A DNA stretch of 64,000 nucleotides from the NCBI GenBank assembly GCA_027624175.1, contig JAQBXT010000005.1, positions 13,429 to 77,428 of the forward strand, given 5' to 3'. The notes under the pieces were generated by a model that saw only the letters and a program-made list of their open reading frames with translations, was not told the DNA's origin and did no database searches. Of the stretch, positions 33,167 to 45,140 are shown in pieces (positions within the stretch are counted from its first letter, which is position 1; the number at the start of each line of letters is the position of its first letter). This stretch comes from Pseudomonadota bacterium (lineage in GTDB: Bacteria; Pseudomonadota; Gammaproteobacteria; Burkholderiales; SG8-39). A program made the position numbers and the translations under genes.

Positions 33167-33946
33167 ATGGCCCTCAAGGCGTCCGAATCCCCCTTCGACC
33201 TGAGCGGTAAGGTTGCCCTGGTCACGGGGTCTACGCGCGGCATCGGCAAGTCGATCGCCGAGGAAATGGCGCGGGCTGGCGCCAAGGTGGTGGTCTCCAG
33301 CCGCAAGGCCGAGGCCTGCGAGCAGGTGCGCGCCGAGTTCGAGCAGCGGGGCTATGAAGTGCTGGCGCAGCCCTGCAACGTGTCGAGGAAGGAGGAGCTG
33401 CAGGCGCTGGTGGACGCGACAGTGAAGCGTTGGGGCCGTATCGATATCGCCGTTTCAAACGCCGCGTCGAATCCCTACTACGGGCCGTTGACCGCGATCC
33501 CGGATGACGCTTTCGACAAGATATTCAACAATAACGTGAAGAGCGTGCTGTGGCTTGCGGCGATGACGCTGCCCGGCATGGCCGAGCGCGGGGGCGGCAG
33601 CTACATCAGCGTAGGGTCGATCGGCGGCATCATCGCCAACACGGTGATCGGCGCCTACGGCATGTCCAAGGCCGCCGACCACATGCTGGTGAAGAACCTG
33701 GCCGCCGAGTGGGGCCCGAAAAACGTGCGCGTCAACGCCATCGCGCCGGGCCTGATCAAGACCGACTTCGCCAAGGTCCTGTGGGAGGACCCCCAGCGGC
33801 GCAAGGAGCGGGAGGCCGCGACCCCGCTGCGGCGCCTAGGCGAGCCGAAGGACATCGGCGGCATCGCCGCGTTTCTCGCCTCCGACGCGGCTGCTTTCAT
33901 CACCGGGCAGTGCATTGTGGCCGACGGCGGAGTTACGATCCTCTGA
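33167..33946 (+). CDS. Short-chain dehydrogenase/reductase (SDR)
   Basis: GKVALVTGSTRGIGKSIA, NAA, and YGMSKAA (YxxxK). Confidence 0.88.
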   Translation: MALKASESPFDLSGKVALVTGSTRGIGKSIAEEMARAGAKVVVSSRKAEACEQVRAEFEQRGYEVLAQPCNVSRKEELQALVDATVKRWGRIDIAVSNAASNPYYGPLTAIPDDAFDKIFNNNVKSVLWLAAMTLPGMAERGGGSYISVGSIGGIIANTVIGAYGMSKAADHMLVKNLAAEWGPKNVRVNAIAPGLIKTDFAKVLWEDPQRRKEREAATPLRRLGEPKDIGGIAAFLASDAAAFITGQCIVADGGVTIL

Positions 33947-33975: not shown

Positions 33976-34848
33976 ATGCCGCAGATGCTCCGCTCCGCGC
34001 TCGCCGCCGGCGATTTCATCGTCGCGCCGGGCGTGTTCGAGATGTTTTCCGCGAAGATCGCCGACCGCATGGGCTTCAAGGCCCTTTACATGACCGGCTA
34101 CGGCATCTCAGCCTCGCACCTCGGCTTGGCGGATGCCGGCCTGGTCACCTATCGCGACATGGTCGAGCGCGCGCGCACTATCGCCCAGGGGACCGCCACG
34201 CCCCTGATCGCGGACGCGGACACCGGCTTCGGCGGACTGGTCAACGTGCGCGAGACGGTGCGCGGCTACGAGGCCGCCGGCGTGCAGGCAATCCAGATCG
34301 AAGATCAGGAGATGCCGAAAAAGTGCGGTCACACGCCCAATCGCCGCGTGGTGCCACTCGCCGACGCGGTGAAGCGCATCGAAGTCGCGGTGGAAGCGCG
34401 CCGCAGCAGCGATTTCCTCATCGTGGCGCGCACTGATGCGCGCACCGCGCTCGGTGTCGACGAGGCGATCCGGCGCGCCCGCGCGTTCGCGAAAGCCGGC
34501 GCCGACATCCTGTTTGTCGAGGCGCCGGAGTCCGAGGCCGAGTTCGCGCGCATCGGCAACGAGCTTGGCGGCGAGGCCAAGCTGCTTGCCAACATGGTGC
34601 CGACCGGCAGATCGCCGATGCTGCCGGCGGAAAAGCTCAAGGGCTTCGGTTTCCACATTGCCATCTACCCCGGCGCAGGCATGGGCGCGGCCTGCGCCGC
34701 ACTGGAGTCCGCCTACGCCTATCTCAGAAAGAACGGATCGCTCGAGGGTTGCCCGGTGCCGTCCTTCGACATGCAGCGGCTGCACGATTTGGTCGGCTTT
34801 GCCGACATCTGGGAATTCGAGCGGCGCCACGTGGACCCGCAGGGCTGA
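33976..34848 (+). CDS. Isocitrate lyase/PEP mutase family enzyme (methylisocitrate/dimethylmalate lyase-like)
   Basis: MPQMLRSALAAGDFIVAPGVFE...YMTGYGISAS...PLIADADTGFGG...IQIEDQEMPKKCGH. The start is ATG 33976 (GGGAG 7 nt upstream); the alternative ATG at 33970 is too close to the SD. The track ORF start at 33550 overlaps the SDR. Confidence 0.82.
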   Translation: MPQMLRSALAAGDFIVAPGVFEMFSAKIADRMGFKALYMTGYGISASHLGLADAGLVTYRDMVERARTIAQGTATPLIADADTGFGGLVNVRETVRGYEAAGVQAIQIEDQEMPKKCGHTPNRRVVPLADAVKRIEVAVEARRSSDFLIVARTDARTALGVDEAIRRARAFAKAGADILFVEAPESEAEFARIGNELGGEAKLLANMVPTGRSPMLPAEKLKGFGFHIAIYPGAGMGAACAALESAYAYLRKNGSLEGCPVPSFDMQRLHDLVGFADIWEFERRHVDPQG

Positions 34849-34852
34849 AGCG

Positions 34853-36220
34853 ATGGCGGGCCGCACGCTGTTCGACAAGGTCTGGGATCCGCACGTCATC
34901 GAGGAGCTGGGTGACGGAGTGCAGCTGCTGCACGTCGACCGGCACCTGATGAACGAGCTCTCCGGCCACCGCGGCCAGCTCGAAATCGCGCAGCGCGGTC
35001 TGAAGATGCGAAATCCGGAGCTGGCGATGGGCACGCTCGATCACGTCGTCTCCACGGCGCCGGGCCGGCGCGGCGGCCCGGCGCCCTGGGCCGAACGGAT
35101 GATCGAAATCTTCCGCGTGGAGAGCGCTCGGGCGGGCTTTCCCGTGCACGACTTCGGCGACGACGGCCAGGGCATCGTGCACGTCGTGGGGCCGGAGCTC
35201 GGCTTTACGCTGCCGGGCGTCCTGCTCGTCTGCGGCGACAGCCACACCTGCACTCACGGCGCGCTCGGCGCGCTCGCCTGGGGTATCGGCACCAGCGAGC
35301 TCACGCACGTGCTCGCCACGCAGGCCATCGTGCAGCAAAAGCCGAAGACGATGCGCGTGCGCTTCGAGGGCACGCTGGCGCGCGGCGTCAGCGCCAAGGA
35401 CATGATCCTCGCGCTCATCGGCAGACTTGGCACGGCGGGCGGCGCGGGCTACGCCGTCGAGTACGCCGGCGAGGCGATCACTGCGCTCGATCTGGAAGGG
35501 CGGATGACCGTGTGCAACCTGTCGATCGAGCTTGGCGCCAAGATTGGCATGGTGGCGCCCGATGAAAAGACCTACGCCTACGTAAAAGGCAGGCGCTATG
35601 CGCCTAAGGGTGATCTCTGGAAGCCTGCGCTCGCGCATTGGCGGGGCCTGCCGGGCGACGCCGATGCGCGCTTTGACGCCGAGCACGCCGTCGATTGCGC
35701 CGCGCTCGCGCCGCAGATCACCTGGGGTACCAGCCCCGAGGACGTGATCGGCGTGCACGAGATGATTCCGGACGCCAAGCCGGAAGCCCTCGCCTACATG
35801 GGGTTGGAGGCCGGCCGGCCGATCGCCGGCACGAAGGTGGACCGCGTCTTCATTGGCTCCTGCACCAATGCTCGGCTGAGTGACTTGCGTGCGGCGGCCG
35901 AGGTGGTGCGCGGGCACCGGGCCGCAGCGCACGTCAATGCCTGGGTGGTGCCGGGGTCGCAGCGCGTCAAGCGCGAGGCCGAGGCCGAAGGGTTGGACGA
36001 CGCGTTCCGCGCCGCCGGCTTCGAGTGGCGCGAGCCCGGGTGCTCGATGTGCGTCGCGGCGAACGGCGACCGCGTCGAGCCGCGCGCACGCTGCGTATCG
36101 ACGTCGAACCGCAACTTCGTCGGCCGGCAGGGACCGCAGGCGCGTACGCACCTTGCGAGCCCCGCGACGGCGGCAGCCGCTGCGATTGCCGGCGAAATCG
36201 CGGACGCCAGGGCGCTCTGA
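34853..36220 (+). CDS. Aconitase-family hydro-lyase large subunit (LeuC-like)
   Basis: The ATG at 34853 gives MAGRTLFDKVWDPHVIEE...LLHVDRHLMNE. Fe-S ligand contexts VCGDSHTCTHGA, IGSCTNARLSDL and GCSMCVAANGD are present. Confidence 0.88.
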   Translation: MAGRTLFDKVWDPHVIEELGDGVQLLHVDRHLMNELSGHRGQLEIAQRGLKMRNPELAMGTLDHVVSTAPGRRGGPAPWAERMIEIFRVESARAGFPVHDFGDDGQGIVHVVGPELGFTLPGVLLVCGDSHTCTHGALGALAWGIGTSELTHVLATQAIVQQKPKTMRVRFEGTLARGVSAKDMILALIGRLGTAGGAGYAVEYAGEAITALDLEGRMTVCNLSIELGAKIGMVAPDEKTYAYVKGRRYAPKGDLWKPALAHWRGLPGDADARFDAEHAVDCAALAPQITWGTSPEDVIGVHEMIPDAKPEALAYMGLEAGRPIAGTKVDRVFIGSCTNARLSDLRAAAEVVRGHRAAAHVNAWVVPGSQRVKREAEAEGLDDAFRAAGFEWREPGCSMCVAANGDRVEPRARCVSTSNRNFVGRQGPQARTHLASPATAAAAAIAGEIADARAL

Positions 36221-36831
36221 TGGACAAGTTCGCCGTCCTCACGGCGGTCGCGGCGCCGTTCCCCCGCGATAACGTCGACACCGATTCCATCATTCGCATC
36301 GAGCGCTGCACCGGCACGCCGAAGGAGGCGCTCGGCCGGTACGCGTTCGAGATGGTGCGCTATCTGCCGGACGGCGCTGACAATCCGGACTTCGTCCTCA
36401 ACCAGCCGCGCTACCGCGGGGCGCAGATCCTCGTCTGCGGCGAATTCTTCGGCACCGGCAGCTCGCGCGAAATGGCGGTGTGGGCGCTTGCCGGCATGGG
36501 CATCCGCTGCCTCATCGCGCCCTCGTTCGGCCAGATCTTTTACGGCAACTGCTTCCAGAACGGCGTCCTGCCGATCACTTTGCCGCCGGCGACGGCCGCG
36601 GCGCTGATGCGGCAGGCGAGCGACCCCGCCGCCGGACCCTTCAGCGTCGACCTCGAGCGCCAGACGGTGAACGGCGACATCGGTTTCGAGATCGGCGCGC
36701 GACGCAGGAAGATGCTGCTCGAGGGCCTCGACGAAATCGCGCTGACGCTGGCGATGGACGCGAAGATCGCGGACTACCAGGCGGCCGACCGCGAGCGGCG
36801 GCCGTGGATCCATTTTTTCCGGAACCCCTGA
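36220..36831 (+). CDS. Aconitase-family hydro-lyase small subunit (LeuD-like)
   Basis: The ATG at 36220 overlaps the large-subunit TGA by 1 nt. MDKFAVLTAVAAPFPRDNVDTDSIIR...GEFFGTGSSREMAVWAL...SFGQIFYGNCFQNG. Confidence 0.85.
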   Translation: MDKFAVLTAVAAPFPRDNVDTDSIIRIERCTGTPKEALGRYAFEMVRYLPDGADNPDFVLNQPRYRGAQILVCGEFFGTGSSREMAVWALAGMGIRCLIAPSFGQIFYGNCFQNGVLPITLPPATAAALMRQASDPAAGPFSVDLERQTVNGDIGFEIGARRRKMLLEGLDEIALTLAMDAKIADYQAADRERRPWIHFFRNP

Positions 36832-38061: not shown

Positions 38062-39159
38062 ATGAACTTCGACTATAACGAAGAGCAGCAACTGCTCGCC
38101 GACTCCGTGCGGCGCTTCATCCAGAAGGGCTACGAGTTCGAGGCGCGCAAGAAGATCGTCGCCTCGGCCGAGGGCTACAGCGAACCGGTGTGGAAGACCC
38201 TTTCCGAGATGGGGCTCACCGGCATTCCGTTCTCGCCGGATTACGGCGGTTTCGGCGGGGGCGCCATCGATTTGCTGAGCGTGATGGAGGCGTTTGGCGA
38301 GGGCTTGGTGGTGGAGCCCTTCCTCGCCACCCTGCTCGGCGCGCAGTGCGTGGCGCGCGCGGGAAGCGACGCGCAAAAGAAGGCGATCCTGCCTGCGGTG
38401 GTGGAGGGCAAGCTGAGGATGGCATTCGCGCATACGGAGAAGGGCGCTCGCTACGACCTTGGCCACGTGAATGCGACGGCGAAAAAGTCGGGCAGCGGCT
38501 GGACCCTGGACGGCGAAAAGGTGGTGGTGCTGGGCGCGCCGGCCGCGGCGAAGCTGGTGGTGTCGGCGAAGACGCCTGCGGGCGTGAGCCTGTTCCTGGT
38601 TGAGGCGAAGGCCGTGAACCAGAAGCCCTACCGCACGTTGGATGAGATGCGTGCGGCGGATGTCGTTCTATCCAGCACGCCCGGCGAGTTGCTGGGTAGC
38701 GAAGGCAAGGCGCTGGCGGTTGTCGAGGAAGTGGTGGATTTCGCTACGGCGCTGGTTTGCGCCGAGTCGGTGGGCGCGATGAAGTACGCCTGCGACAGCA
38801 CGCTGGAGTACCTCAAGACGCGCAAACAGTTCGGCGTGCCGATCGGCACTTTCCAAGCGCTGCAACACCGCATCGTCGACATGTACGTCGCCTACGAGCA
38901 GGCGAAATCGATGGCCTTCCTTGCCTGCAGCCAGTCGGACTCGGCGGCGAACGCGAAGGAGCGCGCGCGCGCCATTTCAGCGGCGAAGATCAAGATCGCG
39001 GACAACGCGCGCCTCATCAGCCAGGAGGCGATCCAGTTGCACGGCGGCATGGGGATGAGCGAGGAACTGAAGGTAAGCCACAGCTTCCGGCGCCTGACCA
39101 TGATCGCGCAGCAGTTTGGCGACGCGGACTACCACCTGGAGCGGTTCGCTAGCGCCTGA
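38062..39159 (+). CDS. Acyl-CoA dehydrogenase family protein, small subunit (PimD-like)
   Basis: 365 aa, starting 2 nt after the previous stop. MNFDYNEEQQLLADSVRRF...FQALQHRIVDM...IQLHGGMGMSEE. Confidence 0.78.
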   Translation: MNFDYNEEQQLLADSVRRFIQKGYEFEARKKIVASAEGYSEPVWKTLSEMGLTGIPFSPDYGGFGGGAIDLLSVMEAFGEGLVVEPFLATLLGAQCVARAGSDAQKKAILPAVVEGKLRMAFAHTEKGARYDLGHVNATAKKSGSGWTLDGEKVVVLGAPAAAKLVVSAKTPAGVSLFLVEAKAVNQKPYRTLDEMRAADVVLSSTPGELLGSEGKALAVVEEVVDFATALVCAESVGAMKYACDSTLEYLKTRKQFGVPIGTFQALQHRIVDMYVAYEQAKSMAFLACSQSDSAANAKERARAISAAKIKIADNARLISQEAIQLHGGMGMSEELKVSHSFRRLTMIAQQFGDADYHLERFASA

Positions 39160-39247
39160 GGGGTAGTCCAGGACCGCGGATTGCGACCTGGGTGGAGTTG
39201 ACCCGCTTTCGTGGACACTTCCCTAAGCTTGGTTTGGCGCCCCCGTC

Positions 39248-39592
39248 TCAGGCAAAGACTACGCTGAGCTTGCCTGCGGCTCGGCGCCGTGGTGCGTTTT
39301 TCACTACGATCTGAACGTCCCGGCCGAGGCTGGTCAGGCAATCGATCAATTTCCGTTCGGAGATTCCGCGGAATTGCCCGCGCAGGAGGCCGGAGAGCTT
39401 CGGCTGGGTGACGCCGAGAATCCTGGCGGCTTCTACTTGCGTCAGCTCCTGGCTGCGGATGATCTCGCTGATTTTCGCAACGAGCTGCGCTTTGACCAGC
39501 ATTTCATCGGCGTCCGGATAGCCGAGGTCGCGGTAGACGTTGCCGCTGCCTTCGTGGATTTCGGTTCCGTCAATGACTTTGCGTTTGCTCAT
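39248..39592 (-). CDS. XRE-family HTH protein, HigA2/COG5606-type antitoxin-like (114 aa), no adjacent toxin
   Basis: AAGGAG-N7-ATG at 39592. MSKRKVIDGTEIHEGSGNVYRDLGYPDADEMLVKAQLVAKISEII...LTQVEAARILGVTQPKLSGLLRGQFRGIS. Third codon positions are more A/T-rich (AAA is 6 of 8 Lys codons) than in neighbours. Confidence 0.8.
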   Translation of the reverse strand: MSKRKVIDGTEIHEGSGNVYRDLGYPDADEMLVKAQLVAKISEIIRSQELTQVEAARILGVTQPKLSGLLRGQFRGISERKLIDCLTSLGRDVQIVVKNAPRRRAAGKLSVVFA

Positions 39593-40138
39593 TTTCCAGC
39601 TCCTTGGCGCGCCGGCGCGGTACCAGCGTGCGGTCCAGTTGAGCACGCCGAAGGTGAACAGGCGCGCGAGCTGCGGGTCGCCCTGCATCAGCCCCTCGGC
39701 CTGGAGTTCGTCGGTCACCTTCTGCCACAGCGCGTCGTAGCGGTCCTTCAGCGCGATCACTCGGCGCCGGTTGGCCGGCGTGAGCGAGCGCCAGTCGTAG
39801 AGCATCACCGGGATGAAGTCGTGGCCGTCCTCGCGCAGGGTGCCCAGGTGCACGCGCACCAGCTTCCTGAACTTCGTCGCCGGCGGCAACTTGAGCGCCG
39901 CGACCGCCTCGAGGTGGCGCAGGCCGTCGGTCAGGCCCTGTTCCATGACCGCCAGCAGCATCTCCTGCTTGGTCTTGAAGTGGTAGAACGGGCTGCCCGA
40001 ATGCATGTCCGCGGCGCGCGAGATGTCGCGGATCGAGGTGCCGTCGAAGCCCTGCTCACGGAATAGCCGCGCGCACACGCGCAGCAGGTCCTCGGGGCGG
40101 TTGCCGTTCTGCGCCGGCTTCTTGCGCGCCTTCCTCAC
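39248..40138 (-). CDS. TetR/AcrR-family regulator ORF that lacks its own stop and continues in frame through the XRE gene (296 codons)
   Basis: The GTG at 40138 overlaps the DUF4387 stop (GTGA). TetR HTH LLRVCARLFREQGFDGTSIRDISRAADMHSGSPFYHFKTKQEML and ligand domain run to FGVLNWTARWYRAGAP. There is no stop before the XRE ATG at 39592. The 108 further upstream codons of track ORF ..40462 overlap DUF4387 and are rejected. Confidence 0.65.
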   Translation of the reverse strand: MRKARKKPAQNGNRPEDLLRVCARLFREQGFDGTSIRDISRAADMHSGSPFYHFKTKQEMLLAVMEQGLTDGLRHLEAVAALKLPPATKFRKLVRVHLGTLREDGHDFIPVMLYDWRSLTPANRRRVIALKDRYDALWQKVTDELQAEGLMQGDPQLARLFTFGVLNWTARWYRAGAPRSWKMSKRKVIDGTEIHEGSGNVYRDLGYPDADEMLVKAQLVAKISEIIRSQELTQVEAARILGVTQPKLSGLLRGQFRGISERKLIDCLTSLGRDVQIVVKNAPRRRAAGKLSVVFA

Positions 40139-40476
40139 TTGGTTTGCAGCCGCGGCAGGTCGGCGGGCGCCTCGATCTCCATGCGCAGCAGCTGCGCGGC
40201 GACCACCTTGCCGAGGTTGTCCATGCGTAGCGAGCGCGCCGCGCCGCCCTGCAGGGCGCGGTTCAGCATGATCTTCAGCGCCAGGATGTTGTCCAGCGGC
40301 CACAGCTCCACCGGCCCCTCGCACTGGTCGCGAAAGTGAGCGGCGACGCGCTCGGGGGTCACCTCGCGCTTGAGCACCGCGTAGGTCGGCGCATCCCAGG
40401 CAAAGAGGCCGATGTCCGCGCGGTCGGCTTTGTCGCCGGAGCGCGCGTGCGCGATTTTCCACAGCGGCACGCGCAT
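40135..40476 (-). CDS. Small DUF4387-like protein that accompanies AtuA/DUF1446 proteins
   Basis: The ATG at 40476 overlaps the AtuA-like stop (TGATG). MRVPLWKIAHARSGDKADRADIGLFAWD...; 113 aa. Confidence 0.75.
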   Translation of the reverse strand: MRVPLWKIAHARSGDKADRADIGLFAWDAPTYAVLKREVTPERVAAHFRDQCEGPVELWPLDNILALKIMLNRALQGGAARSLRMDNLGKVVAAQLLRMEIEAPADLPRLQTK

Positions 40477-41846
40477 CAGATTTTCTCCACGGCGATTTCC
40501 ACTTTCGACTCCATCAGCTCCCGCGCCACCAGCGTCGGCCAGATGCCGAGCAATTCCTTCGCGCCCTGCACGCCTTTCATGCTGCCCACATAGGGCGGGC
40601 CGGAGAGGCCCAGCCACGGAAACAACCGTCCGTAGGCGTCCGCCACCTTGCGTTCCCGCGTACGGATGGTCATGCGCAGGAAACATTCATTCAGCTGGTC
40701 GCGATAAGTCGGATCGGCATTCGCGCCAAGCAGCGAGTTGTAGCCGATGTATTCGACGTTCGTGTCCTCGACTGGCCAGCCGCGTTCGGCGACCAGGATT
40801 CTGATCGTTTCCGCCGCCTTTTTGCATTTCGCGTAGGCCTGCGGCCAGGAAAAGCCGATCATGCCGGTGCCCATCCAGCCGTCGTGGTAGCCGCCCACGA
40901 TCTTGAGTTTGTCCGGGCGCGGCGCGCCGCGCGCACCTGTGAGTTTCACGCGGTCGCCGCCCTGGTCGTCGATTTTGATCGCGCCCATGTCCAGCACCAC
41001 GTCGGGCGAGACGTAGGCATGCGGGTTGTGCACTTCGTAGAGCAGCTGCTGGCGCAGCGTGTCGAAGGAGACGCGGCCCCCGGTGCCCGGCGCCTTGGTG
41101 AACAGTGCGCTCGCGTCCGCGCCCACCTCGGCGATCGGATAGCCCAGGTGCGCGTAATCGGGAATCCCGGCCCATTCCGCCGCCGAGCCGAAGTTGCCGC
41201 CCGAGCCCTGGCCGGAACATTCCAGCAGGTGGCCGACGGTAAGGCCGAGCGCAAGCTTGTCCCAGTCGTCCCATTTCCAGCCCAGTTCATGCACCAGCGG
41301 CGCGAGCGACAGCGCCGCGTCCGCCACGCGCCCGGTGAGCACGATGTCCGCGCCCTGCTCGAGCGCGCGCACGATCGGTTTCGCCCCCAGGTAGGCGTTG
41401 GCGAACAGCATGCGGCTGCGCACCGTGTCGAGGGCGGCGCCGGTGTCCATGTGCGCGAGCGGCTCGCCCGCGGCGCGCAGTTCGTCCAGGCGCTCCAGCG
41501 CCGAGTCGCCGCTCACCGTGGCGATGGTGGCCTTCCAGCCTTTTTCGCGGAACGTGCGTGCGATCGCCTCGCGCGCGCCCTGCGGGTTGAGGCCGCCAGC
41601 GTTGAGGATGAACTTCACGCCGTGCTTCACGGCGAGCGGCCACAGCTCGGCAAGCATCGGCGGGCCGTCGCGCGCGTAACCCGCGGACGGATCCTTCTGC
41701 CGGTCCTTCTGCAGGATCGCGAGCGTCAGCTCGGAAAGGTGGTCGGAGGCGATGTACTGCACGCTGCCGCGCTCGATCGAGGCGCGCACCGGCTGCCAGG
41801 AGTCGCCGTAAAAGCCGAGACCGGCGCCGATCCTGACCGACTTCAT
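40476..41846 (-). CDS. AtuA-like acyclic terpene utilisation family protein (DUF1446)
   Basis: 456 aa; MKSVRIGAGLGFYGDSWQPVRASIERGSVQYIASDHLSELTLAIL... Confidence 0.8.
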   Translation of the reverse strand: MKSVRIGAGLGFYGDSWQPVRASIERGSVQYIASDHLSELTLAILQKDRQKDPSAGYARDGPPMLAELWPLAVKHGVKFILNAGGLNPQGAREAIARTFREKGWKATIATVSGDSALERLDELRAAGEPLAHMDTGAALDTVRSRMLFANAYLGAKPIVRALEQGADIVLTGRVADAALSLAPLVHELGWKWDDWDKLALGLTVGHLLECSGQGSGGNFGSAAEWAGIPDYAHLGYPIAEVGADASALFTKAPGTGGRVSFDTLRQQLLYEVHNPHAYVSPDVVLDMGAIKIDDQGGDRVKLTGARGAPRPDKLKIVGGYHDGWMGTGMIGFSWPQAYAKCKKAAETIRILVAERGWPVEDTNVEYIGYNSLLGANADPTYRDQLNECFLRMTIRTRERKVADAYGRLFPWLGLSGPPYVGSMKGVQGAKELLGIWPTLVARELMESKVEIAVEKI

Positions 41847-42259
41847 TTCGCCGTGGGCATGGCGCGCTCGATGAGCGCGTCGAACGGGACATTGGGCGCC
41901 AGGGTGCCGAAGGCGCCCGTCCAGTCCGCGCCCAGGCGCGCGCGGACGAAGGCCTCGAACACCAGGGCAGGGGAGTGGCGTGCGAGCAGGCTCGCCTGCA
42001 GCGCGAGCGCCAGGTCCTGCGTCAGGCGCCGCGCGGAGGATTCATGCTCGGAGGCGTCCTGCAGCCGGTCCTTGAGCGAGGCGCAGAACGCATCGTAGGC
42101 GCGGTGCCTGCCGGCGGCCGCGTCCAGCTCGGCGGCCACGGCCTCGATCACGTCGGGGGCTTTTCTCAGCGCGCGCAGTACGTCCAGGCACATGACGTTG
42201 CCGGCGCCTTCCCAGATGGAATACGGGGAGTATTTGTGGTGTGTGTCAGAAACCTCGTG
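41843..42259 (-). pseudogene. 3'-terminal remnant of an AidB-like acyl-CoA dehydrogenase gene (about the last 125 codons of a gene normally about 540 codons)
   Basis: The frame reads ...YSIWEGAGNVMCLDVLRALRKAP...ARRLTQDLALALQASLLARH..., matching the AidB C-terminus (E. coli SIWEGSGNIMCLDVLR). An in-frame TAG lies at 42262-42260, and no AidB-like sequence occurs in any frame upstream. The stop overlaps the AtuA-like ATG (ATGA). Confidence 0.6.
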
Positions 42260-42569
42260 CTACGTGCGAAATGTCCTGCCGAAACAAGGATGACCTTGCT
42301 GGCGCCGCCCCCGATCTGGCCGGCGCCCTTTCGCCCGAATCTGTGGTCGCCACTGTCCTTGTGAGCGGACCTGCCGTGACGATCTCTGACATTTGCCATG
42401 TGCCCCCCCGGCCCGGCCGGATTTCCGGCGGCGCGACGAGATTATGCGGCCTTGGTCGCGCACCCGGCAAACAGGACTTTGCGTCAAAAAGCGTAAAATC
42501 GCCAGCGGCTGCGGTCCGGTTGACTCCTCGACCCGGGATGCGCCGCCGGACAAGACTCGAAGCGCCGGA

Positions 42570-45140
42570 ATGACAAACGTTTCCGACATCGCCAAGCTGG
42601 TCGCGGGAGAGTCCCTGGACGCCGATCCGGCGGAGACCCGGGAGTGGCTCGACGCGCTCGATGCGCTGCTCGCCAGCTCCGGCAAGGAGCGCGCGCGCTA
42701 TGTGATGGGGCGGCTCGGCGAGCACGCCGGCGCGCTCGAGGTGCAGATGCGGGCGCGCTTCAACACGCCTTACTGCAACACCATCTCGCCGCAGGAGCAG
42801 CCCCCGTTCCCGGGGGATTTCACCATCGAGCAGCGGCTCGCCTCGATCATCCGCTGGAACGCGCTCGCCATGGTGGTGCGCGCCAACCGCGCGCACGCCG
42901 AGCTTGGCGGCCACATTGCGAGTTTTGCCTCGGCGGCGGACCTGTTCGAGGTCGGCTTCAACCATTTCTTCCGCGGCCATCAGGCCGACCCGGGCGCCGA
43001 CCTGGTGTATTTCCAGCCGCACTCGGCCCCGGGGGTCTACGCACGCGCCTTCCTGGAGGGGCGGCTCACCGACGCCCAGCTCGACAGCTACCGGCGCGAG
43101 ACCGGCGGCCAGGGCCTGTCTTCCTACCCGCATCCCTGGCTGATGCCGGAGTTCTGGCAGTTCCCCACCGGTTCCATGGGACTGGGGCCGCTGAACGCCA
43201 TCTACCAGGCGCGCTTCATGCGCTATCTGGAGCAGCGCGGCGTGCTGAAAACCGAAGGCCGCAAGGTGTGGGCCTTCCCGGGGGACGGCGAAATGGACGA
43301 GCCCGAGTCGCTGGCGGGCCTGTCGATCGCTGCGCGGGAAGGCCTCGATAACCTGATTTTCGTCGTCAACTGCAACCTGCAGCGCCTGGACGGGCCGGTG
43401 CGCGGCAACAGCTCGATCATCCAGGAGCTGGAGGGCCTGTTCGCCGGCGCGGGCTGGAACGTGGTGAAGCTGATCTGGGGCAGCGACTGGGATCCGCTGT
43501 TCGCGCGCGACCGCGAGGGCGTGATCCTGCGGCGCCTGCACGAGACCGTGGACGGGGAGTTCCAGACCTACGCCGCCACCGACGGGCGCTTCAACCGCGA
43601 GCATTTCTTCAACAAGTACCCGGAGCTGAAGGCGCTGGTGGCCGAGCTTACCGACGACGACATCGACCGCCTGAAGCGCGGCGGCCACGATCCGGTGAAA
43701 ATTTATTCGGCGTATCACGCCGCGGTGAACCACAAGGGCCAGCCCACGGTGATCCTCGCCCAGACCAAGAAAGGCTACGGCATGGGCACCTGGGGCCAGG
43801 GCAAGATGGGCACCCACCAGCAGAAGAAACTCGACGACGAAGCGCTGAAGGCGTTCCGCGACCGCTTCGCGCTGCCGCTCTCGGACGAGGATGTGACCGG
43901 CCTCAAGTTCTATCGCCCCGCGGCGGATGCGCCTGAGATGCGCTACCTGCACGCGAAGCGCGAGCGGTTGGGTGGCTACCTGCCGGAGCGCAGGACGGAA
44001 TCGCTGCGGCTAGCGTTGCCCGGGCGCGCGGCATTTGCCAAGGTGCTGGAGGGTTCCGGCGGGCGCGAGCAGTCCACCACCATGCAGTACGTGCAGCTGC
44101 TGGCGCAACTGCTCAAGGACCCCGGCCTGGGCAAGCACGTCGTGCCGATCGTCGCGGACGAGGCGCGCACCTTCGGCATGCAGTCGCTGTTCCGCAACTT
44201 CGCCATCTACTCGCCGCACGGCCAGCTCTACGAGCCCGAGGACCGCGAGGAGCTGCTCTATTACAAGGAAGCGAAGGACGGCCAGATCCTGGAGGAGGGC
44301 ATCACCGAGGCGGGCGCGCTCGCCTCATGGATCGCGGCGGCGACCAGCTACAGCACGCACGGCGTGCCGATGCTGCCGTTCTACATCTTCTATTCGATGT
44401 TCGGCTTCCAGCGCGTGGGCGACCTGATCTGGGCCGCCGCGGATTCGCGCTCGCGCGGCTTCCTGATGGGCGCCACCGCCGGGCGCACCACGCTCGCGGG
44501 CGAGGGTCTGCAGCACCAGGACGGCTCGAGCCACCTTTCCGCATCGACCATTCCGAACTGCGTCGCCTACGACCCCTGCTACGGCTACGAACTCGCGTTG
44601 ATCCTGCAGGACGGCGTGCGGCGCATGCTGGAGGCGGAAGAGGATGTTTTCTATTACGTCACCGTGATGAACGAGAACTACGCACACCCGGCGCTGCCGG
44701 CGGGCGCGGAGGAGGGCGTGCTCAAGGGCATGCACCGCGTGCGCGCGGCGGGGAAGGGCAAGAAGCACGTGCGGTTGCTGGGCGCCGGCGCGATTCTGCG
44801 CGAGGCACTTGCGGCCGCGGAAGTGCTGGAGGAACAGCATGGCGTTGCTGCGGAAGTCTGGTCGGTGACCAGCTTCACGGAGTTGCGCCGCGACGGGCGC
44901 ACGGCGAAGAAGAGCTGGGTGGCGCAGTGCCTCGAGGACGGCAAAGGCCCGGTGATCGCCGCGAGCGACTACGTGAGCGCGCTCGCCGACCTGATCCGCG
45001 AATGGGTGCCGGGGCGCTACGTGACGCTGGGCGCCGACGGCTTCGGCCGCAGCGACACGCGCGCGAAGCTGCGCGCGCACTTCGGCGTGGACCGGGACAG
45101 CATCGTGCAGGCGGCGCTCGGCGAGCTCGGACGGGCGTAA
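42570..45140 (+). CDS. aceE: Pyruvate dehydrogenase E1 component, homodimeric type (856 aa)
   Basis: The ATG at 42570 gives MTNVSDIAK...DPAETREWLDALDALL, collinear with E. coli AceE (GGHIASFASAADL, GDGEMDEPES, NCNLQRLDGPVRGN, YSMFGFQRVGD, GEGLQHQDG, GADGFGRSDTR). No E2/E3 genes follow. Confidence 0.92.
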   Translation: MTNVSDIAKLVAGESLDADPAETREWLDALDALLASSGKERARYVMGRLGEHAGALEVQMRARFNTPYCNTISPQEQPPFPGDFTIEQRLASIIRWNALAMVVRANRAHAELGGHIASFASAADLFEVGFNHFFRGHQADPGADLVYFQPHSAPGVYARAFLEGRLTDAQLDSYRRETGGQGLSSYPHPWLMPEFWQFPTGSMGLGPLNAIYQARFMRYLEQRGVLKTEGRKVWAFPGDGEMDEPESLAGLSIAAREGLDNLIFVVNCNLQRLDGPVRGNSSIIQELEGLFAGAGWNVVKLIWGSDWDPLFARDREGVILRRLHETVDGEFQTYAATDGRFNREHFFNKYPELKALVAELTDDDIDRLKRGGHDPVKIYSAYHAAVNHKGQPTVILAQTKKGYGMGTWGQGKMGTHQQKKLDDEALKAFRDRFALPLSDEDVTGLKFYRPAADAPEMRYLHAKRERLGGYLPERRTESLRLALPGRAAFAKVLEGSGGREQSTTMQYVQLLAQLLKDPGLGKHVVPIVADEARTFGMQSLFRNFAIYSPHGQLYEPEDREELLYYKEAKDGQILEEGITEAGALASWIAAATSYSTHGVPMLPFYIFYSMFGFQRVGDLIWAAADSRSRGFLMGATAGRTTLAGEGLQHQDGSSHLSASTIPNCVAYDPCYGYELALILQDGVRRMLEAEEDVFYYVTVMNENYAHPALPAGAEEGVLKGMHRVRAAGKGKKHVRLLGAGAILREALAAAEVLEEQHGVAAEVWSVTSFTELRRDGRTAKKSWVAQCLEDGKGPVIAASDYVSALADLIREWVPGRYVTLGADGFGRSDTRAKLRAHFGVDRDSIVQAALGELGRA

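What the first reader, a model, noticed from the sequence alone, without database searches (positions are those of the whole stretch)
39248..40138. TetR regulator ORF with no stop codon reads in frame into an orphan HigA2-like XRE gene that has its own RBS
- The TetR-family ORF starts at GTG 40138, coupled by GTGA to the AtuA-like/DUF4387 genes.
- It encodes a normal N-terminal TetR HTH and ligand domain up to ...FGVLNWTARWYRAGAP. That is about 20-30 residues short of where such proteins usually end.
- It never meets a stop codon. It runs straight into MSKRKVIDG..., a COG5606/HigA2-type XRE HTH protein preceded by a perfect AAGGAG-N7-ATG that lies inside the TetR frame.
- The XRE part is compositionally different. 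AAA makes up 6 of 8 Lys codons, and about 30 of 114 codons end in A/T, against strongly G/C-ending neighbours.
- No HigB2/Gp49-type toxin gene lies on either side.

The locus could therefore yield two products. One is a 296-aa chimera with two different DNA-binding HTH domains; the other is a free 114-aa XRE protein. I do not know of a described TetR-HigA chimera controlling an atu-like operon.
Basis: partly seen in the sequence, partly recalled or inferred. Interest (0 to 1): 0.6.

Follow-up and report, generated by a model that had tools for sequence, protein, structure and literature searches.

The report
Rearrangement scar fusing TetR to antitoxin
A piece of foreign DNA (a toxin-antitoxin cassette that has lost its toxin, plus the tip of a jumping gene) replaced the end of a TetR regulator gene, so the damaged regulator now happens to read in frame into the leftover antitoxin gene; it is an ordinary genomic scar, not a designed two-headed regulator.

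Summary
A 296-aa ORF (40138→39248, minus strand) joins a TetR to an HTH_37/XRE protein with no stop codon between them.

It is best explained as a private rearrangement scar:
- About a dozen close relatives (~78–91% TetR identity) carry a 195-aa TetR with no XRE gene next to it.
- The window copy follows these orthologues to residue 176/177 and lacks exactly the last helix (α9, half of the usual TetR dimer interface).
- The ancestral final 12 nt (CTC AGG CGC TAG) survive 449 bp downstream, overlapping the stop of the convergent acyl-CoA dehydrogenase gene.
- The 449-bp insert is a mosaic: the last 48 nt of a Gp49/HigB2-type toxin gene (source of the "perfect RBS"), the intact 114-aa antitoxin, the 26-bp terminal repeat of a widespread IS3-family element, and 32 bp of unknown origin.
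- The left junction sits in an 8-bp microhomology.
- The operon is also damaged at its head. The aidB-like first gene keeps only residues 413–537, and the conserved candidate operator AAGCAATTGCTT is absent from the window.
- No TetR–HTH_37 fusion was found in two large protein searches.

Both a chimera and a free XRE protein could still be made, but nothing suggests an evolved regulator. Interest is low.

The parts
39248..40138 (-). Fused 296-aa ORF (tetR' :: toxin-tail linker :: XRE)
   Evidence: Open frame from GTG 40138 to TGA 39248. Contains TetR_N, a truncated TetR_C_24 and HTH_37.
39611..40138 (-). tetR' : codons 1-176 of the ancestral 195-aa TetR (helices α1-α8)
   Evidence: 88% identical to L001 TetR195 over residues 1-180. 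Alignment with the orthologues diverges after WYRAG. DNA homology to L001 ends at 39610.
39610..39617 (-). Left junction: 8-bp microhomology CGCCGGCG shared by tetR and the toxin 3' end
   Evidence: Homology to L001 runs to 39610, and homology to the TA cassettes starts at 39617. L005 reads CGCCAGGCGCGCCAAGGAG at this point.
39570..39617 (-). 3' tail (48 nt, ...RRAKELENEQTQSH*) of a Gp49/HigB2-type toxin gene, in another frame; contains the AAGGAG RBS (39600-39605) of the antitoxin
   Evidence: L005 and L006 toxins end ...RRAKELEDEQTKNH*/...TRNR* and overlap the XRE gene by 23 nt. The L006 toxin matches PF05973.
39248..39592 (-). Intact 114-aa HTH_37/XRE antitoxin gene (orphan)
   Evidence: HTH_37 at E 3.6e-27. 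95% identical to P0121 and P0122, and all relatives are 114-116 aa. 88-90% DNA identity to cassette loci. Closest PDB entries are 2o38 and 2a6c.
39239..39247 (-). About 9 bp of cassette-type flank after the XRE stop
   Evidence: BLAST homology to L008 and L009 extends to 39241 and 39239.
39193..39218 (.). 26-bp terminal inverted repeat of an IS3-family insertion sequence (TGGAGTTGACCCGCTTTCGTGGACAC on the + strand); the remnant may extend to about 39237. The IS interior side faces the XRE gene, and the rest of the IS is gone.
   Evidence: The 25-mer has over 120 exact hits in metagenome contigs. Conservation stops at the terminal T/A, with an RBS and the orfA ATG 30 nt inside. The full 1,453-bp copy in L094 has HTH_Tnp_1 orfA, rve orfB and an IRR matching at 22/26. 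There is a single copy in the window, and none in 100 shuffles.
39161..39192 (.). 32 bp of unknown foreign origin between the IS end and the ancestral tetR terminus
   Evidence: No match to L001, to any of 209 loci, or elsewhere in the window.
39149..39160 (-). Displaced last 12 nt of the ancestral tetR (CTC AGG CGC TAG = L R R stop), overlapping the ACAD365 stop codon
   Evidence: Identical to L001, and homology resumes exactly at 39160.
38062..39159 (+). Convergent acyl-CoA dehydrogenase (ACAD365), intact
   Evidence: 94% identical to the L001 ACAD365 over its full length. Pfam Acyl-CoA_dh_N/M/1.
40135..40476 (-). AtuA_ferredoxin-domain gene, intact, stop overlapping the tetR' GTG
   Evidence: 97% identical to L001 over 113 aa. 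PF23544.
40476..41846 (-). AtuA-family gene, intact
   Evidence: 93% identical to L001 over 456 aa. PF07287.
41843..42220 (-). 3' remnant (residues 413-537 of 537) of the aidB-like acyl-CoA dehydrogenase that heads the operon in relatives; the upstream operator/promoter region and the divergent ABC permease genes are missing
   Evidence: tblastn of the L001 AidB537 matches only 42220-41846, and the permeases have no hit. The architecture is conserved in relatives. The palindrome AAGCAATTGCTT is absent from the window.

Best explanation
The locus is a recent rearrangement scar found only in this genome.

Ancestral state (shown by about a dozen relatives): an operon aidB-like - atuA - atuA_ferredoxin - tetR (195 aa), whose 3' end overlaps the end of a convergent acyl-CoA dehydrogenase gene.

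Inferred history:
- Foreign DNA entered the last codons of tetR. It carried a Gp49/HigB2-type toxin gene, its overlapping HTH_37 antitoxin gene and an IS3-family insertion sequence.
- Later deletions pruned it. One deletion ran between an 8-bp microhomology in tetR codon 176/177 and the 3' end of the toxin gene. It removed TetR helix α9 together with almost the whole toxin gene and its promoter.
- Another deletion removed the IS body, leaving its 26-45-bp tip.
- The order and number of these events is inferred, not shown.

Consequences:
- The left junction happens to put tetR' in the antitoxin's frame. Ribosomes that start at GTG 40138 run through five linker codons into the antitoxin and make a 296-aa chimera.
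- Ribosomes can also start at the antitoxin's native RBS/ATG and make the free 114-aa protein.
- The TetR half most likely no longer works as a dimeric repressor. It has lost α9, and the candidate operator is gone from the window along with 77% of the first gene.
- The XRE half is an orphan antitoxin with no toxin to neutralise and no promoter of its own. It can be expressed only by read-through.
For: Ancestral architecture and length:
- All TetR orthologues listed are about 195 aa and cover 57-61% of the query. No hit covers both halves.
- L001 and about a dozen MAG loci show aidB-atuA-atuAfd-tetR195 facing ACAD365.

Junctions:
- Homology to L001 ends at 39610 and resumes at 39160 with CTCAGGCGCTAG.

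Toxin tail and native RBS:
- L005, L006 and L007 carry a Gp49 toxin that overlaps a 88-95%-identical XRE gene. The window's homology to these cassettes spans 39617-39247.

IS3-family end:
-.

Private to this genome:
- None of 80 related tetR loci has an XRE or toxin gene.
- No fusion appears among the best 150 of 1.84 billion representatives.

Foreign composition:
- XRE GC3 is 0.73 against 0.87-0.96 in the neighbours. It stays at 0.70-0.76 in every host locus.

α9 lost:
- The AF2 model of intact P0003 has helices at 155-174 and 181-193.
- In nine-helix TetR regulators, α8 and α9 form the four-helix-bundle dimer interface (PMC6755732, PMC11667970).
- In the chimera model, residues 152-212 fall below pLDDT 50.

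Operator lost:
- The invariant palindrome AAGCAATTGCTT overlaps a -35/-10 pair. It occurs once per locus in 18 related loci and is absent from the window.
- The aidB-like gene is reduced to residues 413-537.

Toxin loss recurs in this cassette clade:
- There are three different upstream junction types.
- Orphan antitoxins are common in general (PMC7192599).
Against: - Neither half shows decay. The XRE is full length and 95% identical to cassette copies.
- The TetR part is no outlier at conserved positions: 2 deviations, and 34 of 120 orthologues have at least as many. Continued selection cannot be excluded, only recency inferred.
- The 32 bp at 39161-39192 are unexplained.
- I cannot tell whether the IS tip is the left or the right end.
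- No intermediate (full cassette plus full IS at this site) was found.
- The operator, the ABC permeases and the aidB 5' part could sit elsewhere in the genome, outside the window, where a still-active TetR' could act in trans.
- No reads or expression data are available.
- The pLDDT drop in the chimera may partly reflect the shallower alignment (21 sequences against 32).
Confidence: 0.8

Rival explanations
1. The orphan XRE protein is the functionally relevant product and the fusion is incidental. It would be made from its own RBS on read-through transcripts. It would act as an anti-addiction or immunity factor against incoming Gp49/HigB2-type toxins (from plasmids or other mobile elements), or as a stand-alone regulator.
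For: - The gene is intact and its native AAGGAG-N7-ATG is preserved.
- Intact 114-aa XRE genes persist beside destroyed or absent Gp49 toxins in at least three independent junction types. One of these types is conserved between two samples.
- Orphan antitoxins are abundant, and such roles have been proposed for them (PMC7192599).
- In V. cholerae HigA2 the N-terminal disordered region neutralises the toxin and the HTH domain binds DNA (PMC11006873).
Against: - Its own promoter is gone, and no cognate toxin lies in the 64 kb.
- Intactness is equally explained by a recent deletion.
- V. cholerae HigA2 itself is not detectably similar at E ≤ 0.01, so the mechanistic analogy rests only on the shared Pfam family.
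Confidence: 0.2
2. The 296-aa protein is a working chimeric regulator with two DNA-binding domains. Dimerisation through the XRE domain would replace the lost TetR α8/α9 interface and would couple atu-type ligand sensing to a new operator.
For: - The frame is open, and both HTH motifs and the ligand-pocket helices α4-α8 are retained.
- No degenerative substitutions have accumulated.
- HigA2-type HTH domains dimerise.
Against: - The fusion is unique to this genome.
- It is bracketed by mobile-element debris.
- α9 is missing, and α8 plus the linker have low confidence in the model.
- The native operator/promoter and most of the first gene are deleted.
- The prior for an in-frame junction by accident is about 1 in 3.
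Confidence: 0.05
3. Assembly artefact: a chimeric join, or a sequencing error that removed a stop codon.
For: - The insert contains a fragment of a highly repeated IS end, and repeats can mislead assemblers.
- No reads are available for checking.
Against: - Both flanks of the 449-bp insert are collinear with the same orthologous locus, down to the retained last 12 nt of tetR. An artefact would need two precise mis-joins.
- The IS fragment is only 26-45 bp.
- The tetR stop is not 'missing' through a base error. It is displaced 449 bp downstream and is still present.
- The stretch upstream of the XRE ATG is stop-free in native cassettes too.
Confidence: 0.05

Closest known systems
HigB2/HigA2-type (Gp49 PF05973 / HTH_37 PF13744) type II toxin-antitoxin modules, e.g. 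Vibrio cholerae higBA2
   Same: - The XRE part is an HTH_37 protein of antitoxin size.
- In close relatives it is encoded immediately downstream of a Gp49-family toxin gene and overlaps it, toxin first as in higBA.
- Its N-terminal ~30 residues are predicted to be unstructured, like the toxin-binding disordered region of HigA2 (PMC11006873).
   Different: - Here the toxin gene is reduced to its last 48 nt and the operon promoter is gone.
- There is no detectable sequence similarity to V. cholerae HigA2 at E ≤ 0.01. The nearest solved structures are the uncharacterised 2o38 and 2a6c.
- This is a remnant, not a TA module.
Orphan antitoxins / degraded TA loci (e.g. surveyed in Klebsiella pneumoniae, PMC7192599)
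   Same: An intact antitoxin gene without a toxin partner, in a context unrelated to the intact pair. Such orphans are interpreted as remnants of degrading TA loci.
   Different: Here the deletion that removed the toxin also fused the antitoxin in frame to a host regulator gene, and an IS tip marks the other side.
TetR-family repressors with a TetR_C_24 ligand domain (KstR2-like; nearest solved 4mxm/4mo7 'Transcriptional regulator I2')
   Same: The N-terminal HTH and helices α4-α8 are 88% identical to 195-aa orthologues. These orthologues sit in an acyl-CoA dehydrogenase/AtuA operon with a palindromic operator that overlaps the promoter.
   Different: - α9 is lacking, which is half of each subunit's contribution to the four-helix dimer bundle.
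- The candidate operator is absent from the window.
IS3-family insertion sequences
   Same: A 26-bp terminus identical to that of a very widespread IS3-family group. These elements have TG...CA ends, orfA with HTH_Tnp_1, orfB with rve, and a length of 1,453 bp in L094.
   Different: Only one tip remains. There is no transposase, no second end and no recognisable target duplication.
Natural two-HTH single-chain TetR proteins (Mce3R-type double TetR)
   Same: One polypeptide carries two DNA-binding HTH domains.
   Different: - Mce3R-type proteins are tandem TetR duplications that rebuild the four-helix bundle within one chain, and they are conserved (PMC11667970). The 400-630-aa two-stretch hits look like this kind.
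- The window protein joins unrelated domains through a disordered linker and is found nowhere else.

Membership tests
TetR-family repressor (functional, dimeric) | N-terminal TetR_N helix-turn-helix | tested here: met
   PF00440 at E 1.7e-11, residues 19-64. Aligns with the orthologues.
TetR-family repressor (functional, dimeric) | Complete C-terminal domain including α8 and α9, which form the four-helix-bundle dimer interface | tested here: not met
   TetR_C_24 is matched only to profile position 94 of 114. Orthologues continue for 18 more residues. These form helix 181-193 in the AF2 model of P0003. The role of α8/α9 is taken from PMC6755732 and PMC11667970.
TetR-family repressor (functional, dimeric) | Cognate palindromic operator at the regulated promoter | tested here: not met
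   The candidate operator AAGCAATTGCTT is invariant in relatives and occurs once per locus in 18 loci. It is absent from the 64-kb window. It could still exist outside the window.
Type II TA module, Gp49/HigB2 toxin + HTH_37 antitoxin | Antitoxin gene of the HTH_37 family | tested here: met
   PF13744 at E 3.6e-27, over the full profile. 88-95% identical to antitoxins of intact cassettes.
Type II TA module, Gp49/HigB2 toxin + HTH_37 antitoxin | Adjacent intact toxin gene (PF05973) | tested here: not met
   Only the last 48 nt remain. No other match in the window.
Type II TA module, Gp49/HigB2 toxin + HTH_37 antitoxin | Own autoregulated promoter upstream of the toxin gene | tested here: not met
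   The sequence upstream of the 48-nt toxin tail is tetR coding sequence. No convincing promoter-like site lies there.
Type II TA module, Gp49/HigB2 toxin + HTH_37 antitoxin | [quoted passage not shown] | not testable with these tools
   Only an analogy to V. cholerae HigA2 (PMC11006873). The chimera model has pLDDT below 50 for residues 152-212.
IS3-family insertion sequence (complete element) | Terminal inverted repeats with TG...CA ends | tested here: inconclusive
   One end is present and identical to over 120 copies. No second end within 3 mismatches in the window.
IS3-family insertion sequence (complete element) | orfA (HTH_Tnp_1) and orfB (rve, DDE) transposase genes | tested here: not met
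   Present in L094. tblastn of both against the window finds nothing.
Evolved multidomain regulator (TetR + XRE architecture) | The same architecture recurs in other genomes | tested here: not met
   No hit covers both halves among the best 120 of 5.8 billion clusters or the best 150 of 1.84 billion representatives. None of 80 related loci has the architecture. Limit: only the top-ranked hits are listed, so very distant fusions could be missed.

The most novel reading that the evidence does not exclude
The accidental fusion has been co-opted. The XRE domain's own dimer interface would hold two TetR' halves together. The result would be a ligand-responsive, four-HTH regulator with a new DNA specificity, caught at the moment a new regulator architecture is born.
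Probability: 0.04. Interest if true: 0.55.

Novelty: new member of a known kind. Interest (0 to 1): 0.2.

Why it matters
This matters mainly as a caution and a worked example. An eye-catching "two-headed regulator" ORF turns out to be debris from a mobile-element visit. The debris is a toxin-less antitoxin, an IS tip and a beheaded operon.

It illustrates three things:
- Toxin loss from TA cassettes can create in-frame fusions with host genes.
- The "internal RBS" of such fusions is inherited from the cassette.
- Annotation pipelines would call this one 296-aa regulator when it is better flagged as a disrupted tetR plus an orphan antitoxin.

Two by-products may be useful:
- A strong candidate operator (AAGCAATTGCTT) for this AtuA/acyl-CoA-dehydrogenase operon family in soil Burkholderiales.
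- The terminal repeat of a very widespread IS3-family group.

Tried and rejected
- **Transposon-style insertion of the XRE gene:** rejected. There are no terminal inverted repeats and no convincing target duplication. The 7-bp GCGCCAA found on both sides of the XRE gene is too short and too GC-typical to count.
- **The 87-bp tail as a structured RNA, attC-like site or terminator:** rejected. Fold z = -1.0, no Rfam hit at E ≤ 1, and no terminator on the relevant strand.
- **The 87-bp tail as a diverged tetR C-terminus:** rejected. Translation in the tetR frame (…QVAIRGPGLPLRR*) and DNA comparison with L001 show about 37% identity by my own count, which is background level. Only the last 12 nt are homologous.
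- **Origin of the 32 bp at 39161-39192:** BLAST against 209 loci and against the window found nothing. It remains unexplained.
- **Plasmid database search:** only partial XRE matches at 67-71% identity in Xylella, Xanthomonas and Burkholderia plasmids, with no match to the flanks.
- **IS-bearing metagenome loci as the donor configuration:** none carries the cassette.
- **Left or right IS end:** unresolved. The interior-proximal 19-30 nt match no sampled copy well.
- **Relaxed-selection test on the TetR part:** inconclusive.
- **First chimera alignment (A4):** misaligned and discarded. A5 was used instead.
- **MAFFT placement of the right junction:** wrong. It was corrected with a gap-tolerant pairwise alignment.
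Full report
**Observation.** On the minus strand, GTG 40138 overlaps the TGA of the upstream AtuA_ferredoxin gene, and the frame stays open to TGA 39250-39248, giving 296 aa. Pfam finds three domains: TetR_N at residues 19-64, TetR_C_24 at residues 84-176 (matched only to profile positions 2-94 of 114), and a complete HTH_37 domain at residues 201-280. AAGGAG (39605-39600), 7 nt and ATG 39592 precede the XRE part. The codon claim holds: XRE GC3 is 0.73 against 0.87-0.96 in the five neighbouring genes, and 6 of 8 Lys codons are AAA.

**What the TetR should look like.** A search of 5.8 billion protein clusters returned 120 listed orthologues of 187-206 aa, almost all 194-196 aa, at up to 89% identity. 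All of them cover only 57-61% of the query, and no hit covers both halves. The orthologues end ...WYRAGGRKSLDEIAEEAARFLLRR. The window copy follows them to WYRAG and then reads APRSWK-MSKRK..., so 18 residues are missing. In an AlphaFold model of the intact orthologue P0003 (pLDDT 83), those residues form the last helix, 181-193, after helix 155-174. In nine-helix TetR-family repressors, α8 and α9 of each subunit build the four-helix bundle that holds the dimer together (PMC6755732, PMC11667970).

**Ancestral locus and junctions.** The closest relative is L001, a soil betaproteobacterial MAG. Its gene order is ABC permeases <- | -> aidB-like ACAD (537 aa) - atuA - atuA_ferredoxin - tetR (195 aa) -> | <- ACAD365 - ACAD394 - SDR. 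The tetR 3' end overlaps the ACAD365 3' end, and there is no XRE gene. About a dozen further MAG loci share this order. Window proteins are 88-97% identical to those of L001.

At the DNA level, homology to L001 ends at 39610 and resumes exactly at 39160 with CTCAGGCGCTAG. That sequence is the last three codons plus the stop of the ancestral tetR, overlapping the ACAD365 stop. A 449-bp insert (39161-39609) therefore replaces 47 bp of tetR. The tetR stop codon is not missing. It has been pushed 449 bp downstream.

**Anatomy of the insert.**
- *Cassette.* The closest XRE relatives (88-95% identity, all 114-116 aa) lie in two-gene cassettes. A 122-aa Gp49/HigB2-type toxin gene (PF05973) overlaps the antitoxin gene by 23 nt (L006, L007 and L005). 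The window's DNA homology to these cassettes spans 39617-39247. It therefore includes the last part of the toxin gene, read in another frame as ...RRAKELENEQTQSH*. The "perfect RBS" is the native coupling signal inside the toxin's 3' end.
- *Left junction.* Homology to tetR (to 39610) and to the cassette (from 39617) overlap in CGCCGGCG. This is an 8-bp microhomology typical of illegitimate recombination.
- *IS tip.* After the XRE stop come about 9 bp of cassette-type flank. Then comes a 25-mer, GTGTCCACGAAAGCGGGTCAACTCC, with over 120 exact matches in metagenome contigs from many environments, often near contig ends.
  - In those loci, conservation ends exactly at the following A. About 30 nt inside lie a reversed GGAGG and an ATG that opens MAKT..RYTPEF....
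  - A full copy in L094 is 1,453 bp long. It has an HTH_Tnp_1 orfA, an overlapping rve (DDE) orfB and a 22/26 inverted repeat at the other end. This is an IS3-family element.
  - The window keeps only 26-45 bp of one tip, with no transposase remnant.
- *Unexplained 32 bp.* The 32 bp between the IS tip and the tetR terminus match nothing I hold.

**The operon is damaged at its head too.** Of the 537-aa aidB-like first gene, only residues 413-537 remain (42220-41846). The divergent ABC permease genes are absent from the window, and aceE now lies upstream. In relatives, the permease/aidB intergenic region carries an invariant perfect palindrome, AAGCAATTGCTT. It overlaps a -35-like TTGCTT that is followed after 17 nt by TAGACT. 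The palindrome occurs exactly once in each of 18 related loci, including distant ones where gene order differs but tetR is still next to it. This makes it a strong candidate TetR operator (inference). It is absent from the 64-kb window. The 17-mer has no match even with 3 mismatches, and the 12-mer has no exact copy; its 2-mismatch hits are at chance level.

**Is the fusion found elsewhere?** No. None of 80 related tetR loci carries an XRE or toxin gene. Neither the word-indexed search nor an exhaustive HMMER search of 1.84 billion representatives lists a protein that matches both halves. The two-stretch hits are 400-630-aa proteins whose best-matching stretch falls in the query's TetR half, consistent with tandem TetR duplications. 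Toxin loss beside this XRE clade is recurrent, however. L008 keeps only toxin codons 1 to ~33, fused to the XRE ATG. L002, L003, L004 and L009 have no Gp49 DNA at all. Orphan antitoxins are common in bacterial genomes generally (PMC7192599).

**Structure of the chimera.** With an alignment covering both halves (A5), the model has mean pLDDT 58.5. The TetR core (residues 11-150) scores about 55-83. Residues 152-212, which include α8 and the whole linker, fall below 50, whereas α8 scored about 87 in the intact orthologue. The XRE HTH domain scores 51-63. This fits two beads on a flexible string with a destabilised TetR dimerisation region. The alignments differ in depth, so this is supporting evidence only.

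**Mechanism (best explanation, confidence about 0.8).**
- A foreign segment carrying the toxin-antitoxin cassette and an IS3-family element landed in the last codons of tetR.
- Deletions then removed the toxin, together with TetR α9 and the cassette promoter, via the microhomology. They also removed the IS body.
- Shown: the junctions, the toxin tail, the IS tip, and the fact that the arrangement is private to this genome.
- Inferred: the order and number of the events.
- The junction happens to be in frame (prior about 1 in 3, with five stop-free linker codons). The mRNA, if made, can therefore give a 296-aa chimera and, from the native RBS, free XRE protein.
- The TetR half most likely cannot dimerise normally and has no operator nearby. 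The XRE half is an orphan antitoxin with no promoter of its own.

**Caveats.**
- Neither half shows decay. The TetR part has only 2 deviations at columns that are ≥95% conserved, and 34 of 120 orthologues have at least as many. The events are either recent or the parts are still constrained.
- The operator and a cognate toxin could exist outside the window.
- An assembly artefact is unlikely. Both flanks return to the same orthologous locus with base-level precision, which would need two exact mis-joins.

**Comparison and verdict.**
- The XRE part works like a HigA2-type antitoxin by family (HTH_37) and by its relatives' gene context. The locus fails the defining test of a TA module because it has no toxin.
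- The TetR part fails two defining features of a functional TetR repressor: α9 and a nearby operator.
- The IS is only a tip.
- The whole is a new instance of well-known processes: TA decay to an orphan antitoxin, IS scars and accidental gene fusion. It is not a new kind of regulator.
Its functional suggestion is not supported.

Noticed in passing
window 41843-42570: The aidB-like acyl-CoA dehydrogenase that heads the operon in relatives is cut to its last 125 residues (42220-41846). The DNA upstream is unrelated and lower in GC, and it leads to a divergent pyruvate dehydrogenase E1 gene. The ABC permease genes of relatives are absent. A promoter-like site (TTGCCG-18-CATAAT) lies at 42470-42441 on the minus strand and could now drive the remnant operon.
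   Followed up: partly
L001 2621-2632 and 17 other loci: The perfect palindrome AAGCAATTGCTT overlaps a -35/-10 pair. It is invariant in the promoter region of the tetR-containing operon across relatives down to about 55% TetR identity. It is a strong candidate operator for this TetR_C_24 regulator family.
   Followed up: partly
window 34436-36831: A pair of aconitase-family large and small subunit genes (about 2.9 kb including flanks) sits between the SDR gene (33167-33943) and ACAD394 (36875). In L001, L011, L012 and L017 those two genes are adjacent. This is another window-specific insertion in the same 10-kb neighbourhood.
   Followed up: partly
L011 4586-5681; L014 4589-6440; also L012, L016, L017, L020-L023: The tetR/ACAD365 boundary varies among relatives. 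Some carry 0.75-1.9 kb of extra genes there, for example a cyclase-PilZ protein in L011, or MipA plus an NAD(P)H-binding protein in L014. The site of the scar is therefore a recurrent spot for gene gain and loss.
   Followed up: partly
L090-L209 (e.g. L094 6919-8371): An IS3-family group with the terminus TGGAGTTGACCCGCTTTCGTGGACAC is extremely widespread. Matches are often about 100 bp from contig ends, so the element probably breaks assemblies. Elements that share the identical 26-bp end have quite different interiors.
   Followed up: partly
L002 3630-4345; L009 2162-2845; L004 1-486: In these loci the 89-90%-identical XRE gene is preceded by sequence ending ...HRLVYRVEGNTVFIAQCRFHYD*. This looks to me like a YoeB/Txe/RelE-type toxin C-terminus, and its TGA overlaps the XRE ATG. 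Further upstream is a conserved 76-aa ORF (88% identical between L002 and L009) with no Pfam hit. It may be a hybrid or three-gene TA arrangement.
   Followed up: partly
L008 1-3715: The XRE copy with a 47-aa toxin stub sits in a cluster of other TA-like genes: Fic, PhdYeFM antitoxin, dnstrm_HI1420, and HigB-like toxin with HTH_3. This looks like a TA-rich island.
   Followed up: no
L010 and L016 (MFD MAGs): The aidB, atuA and ACAD365 homologues appear as several consecutive tblastn pieces in shifted frames. This probably reflects indel errors in long-read MAG assemblies rather than pseudogenes. It is a caution for using these loci at base resolution.
   Followed up: no
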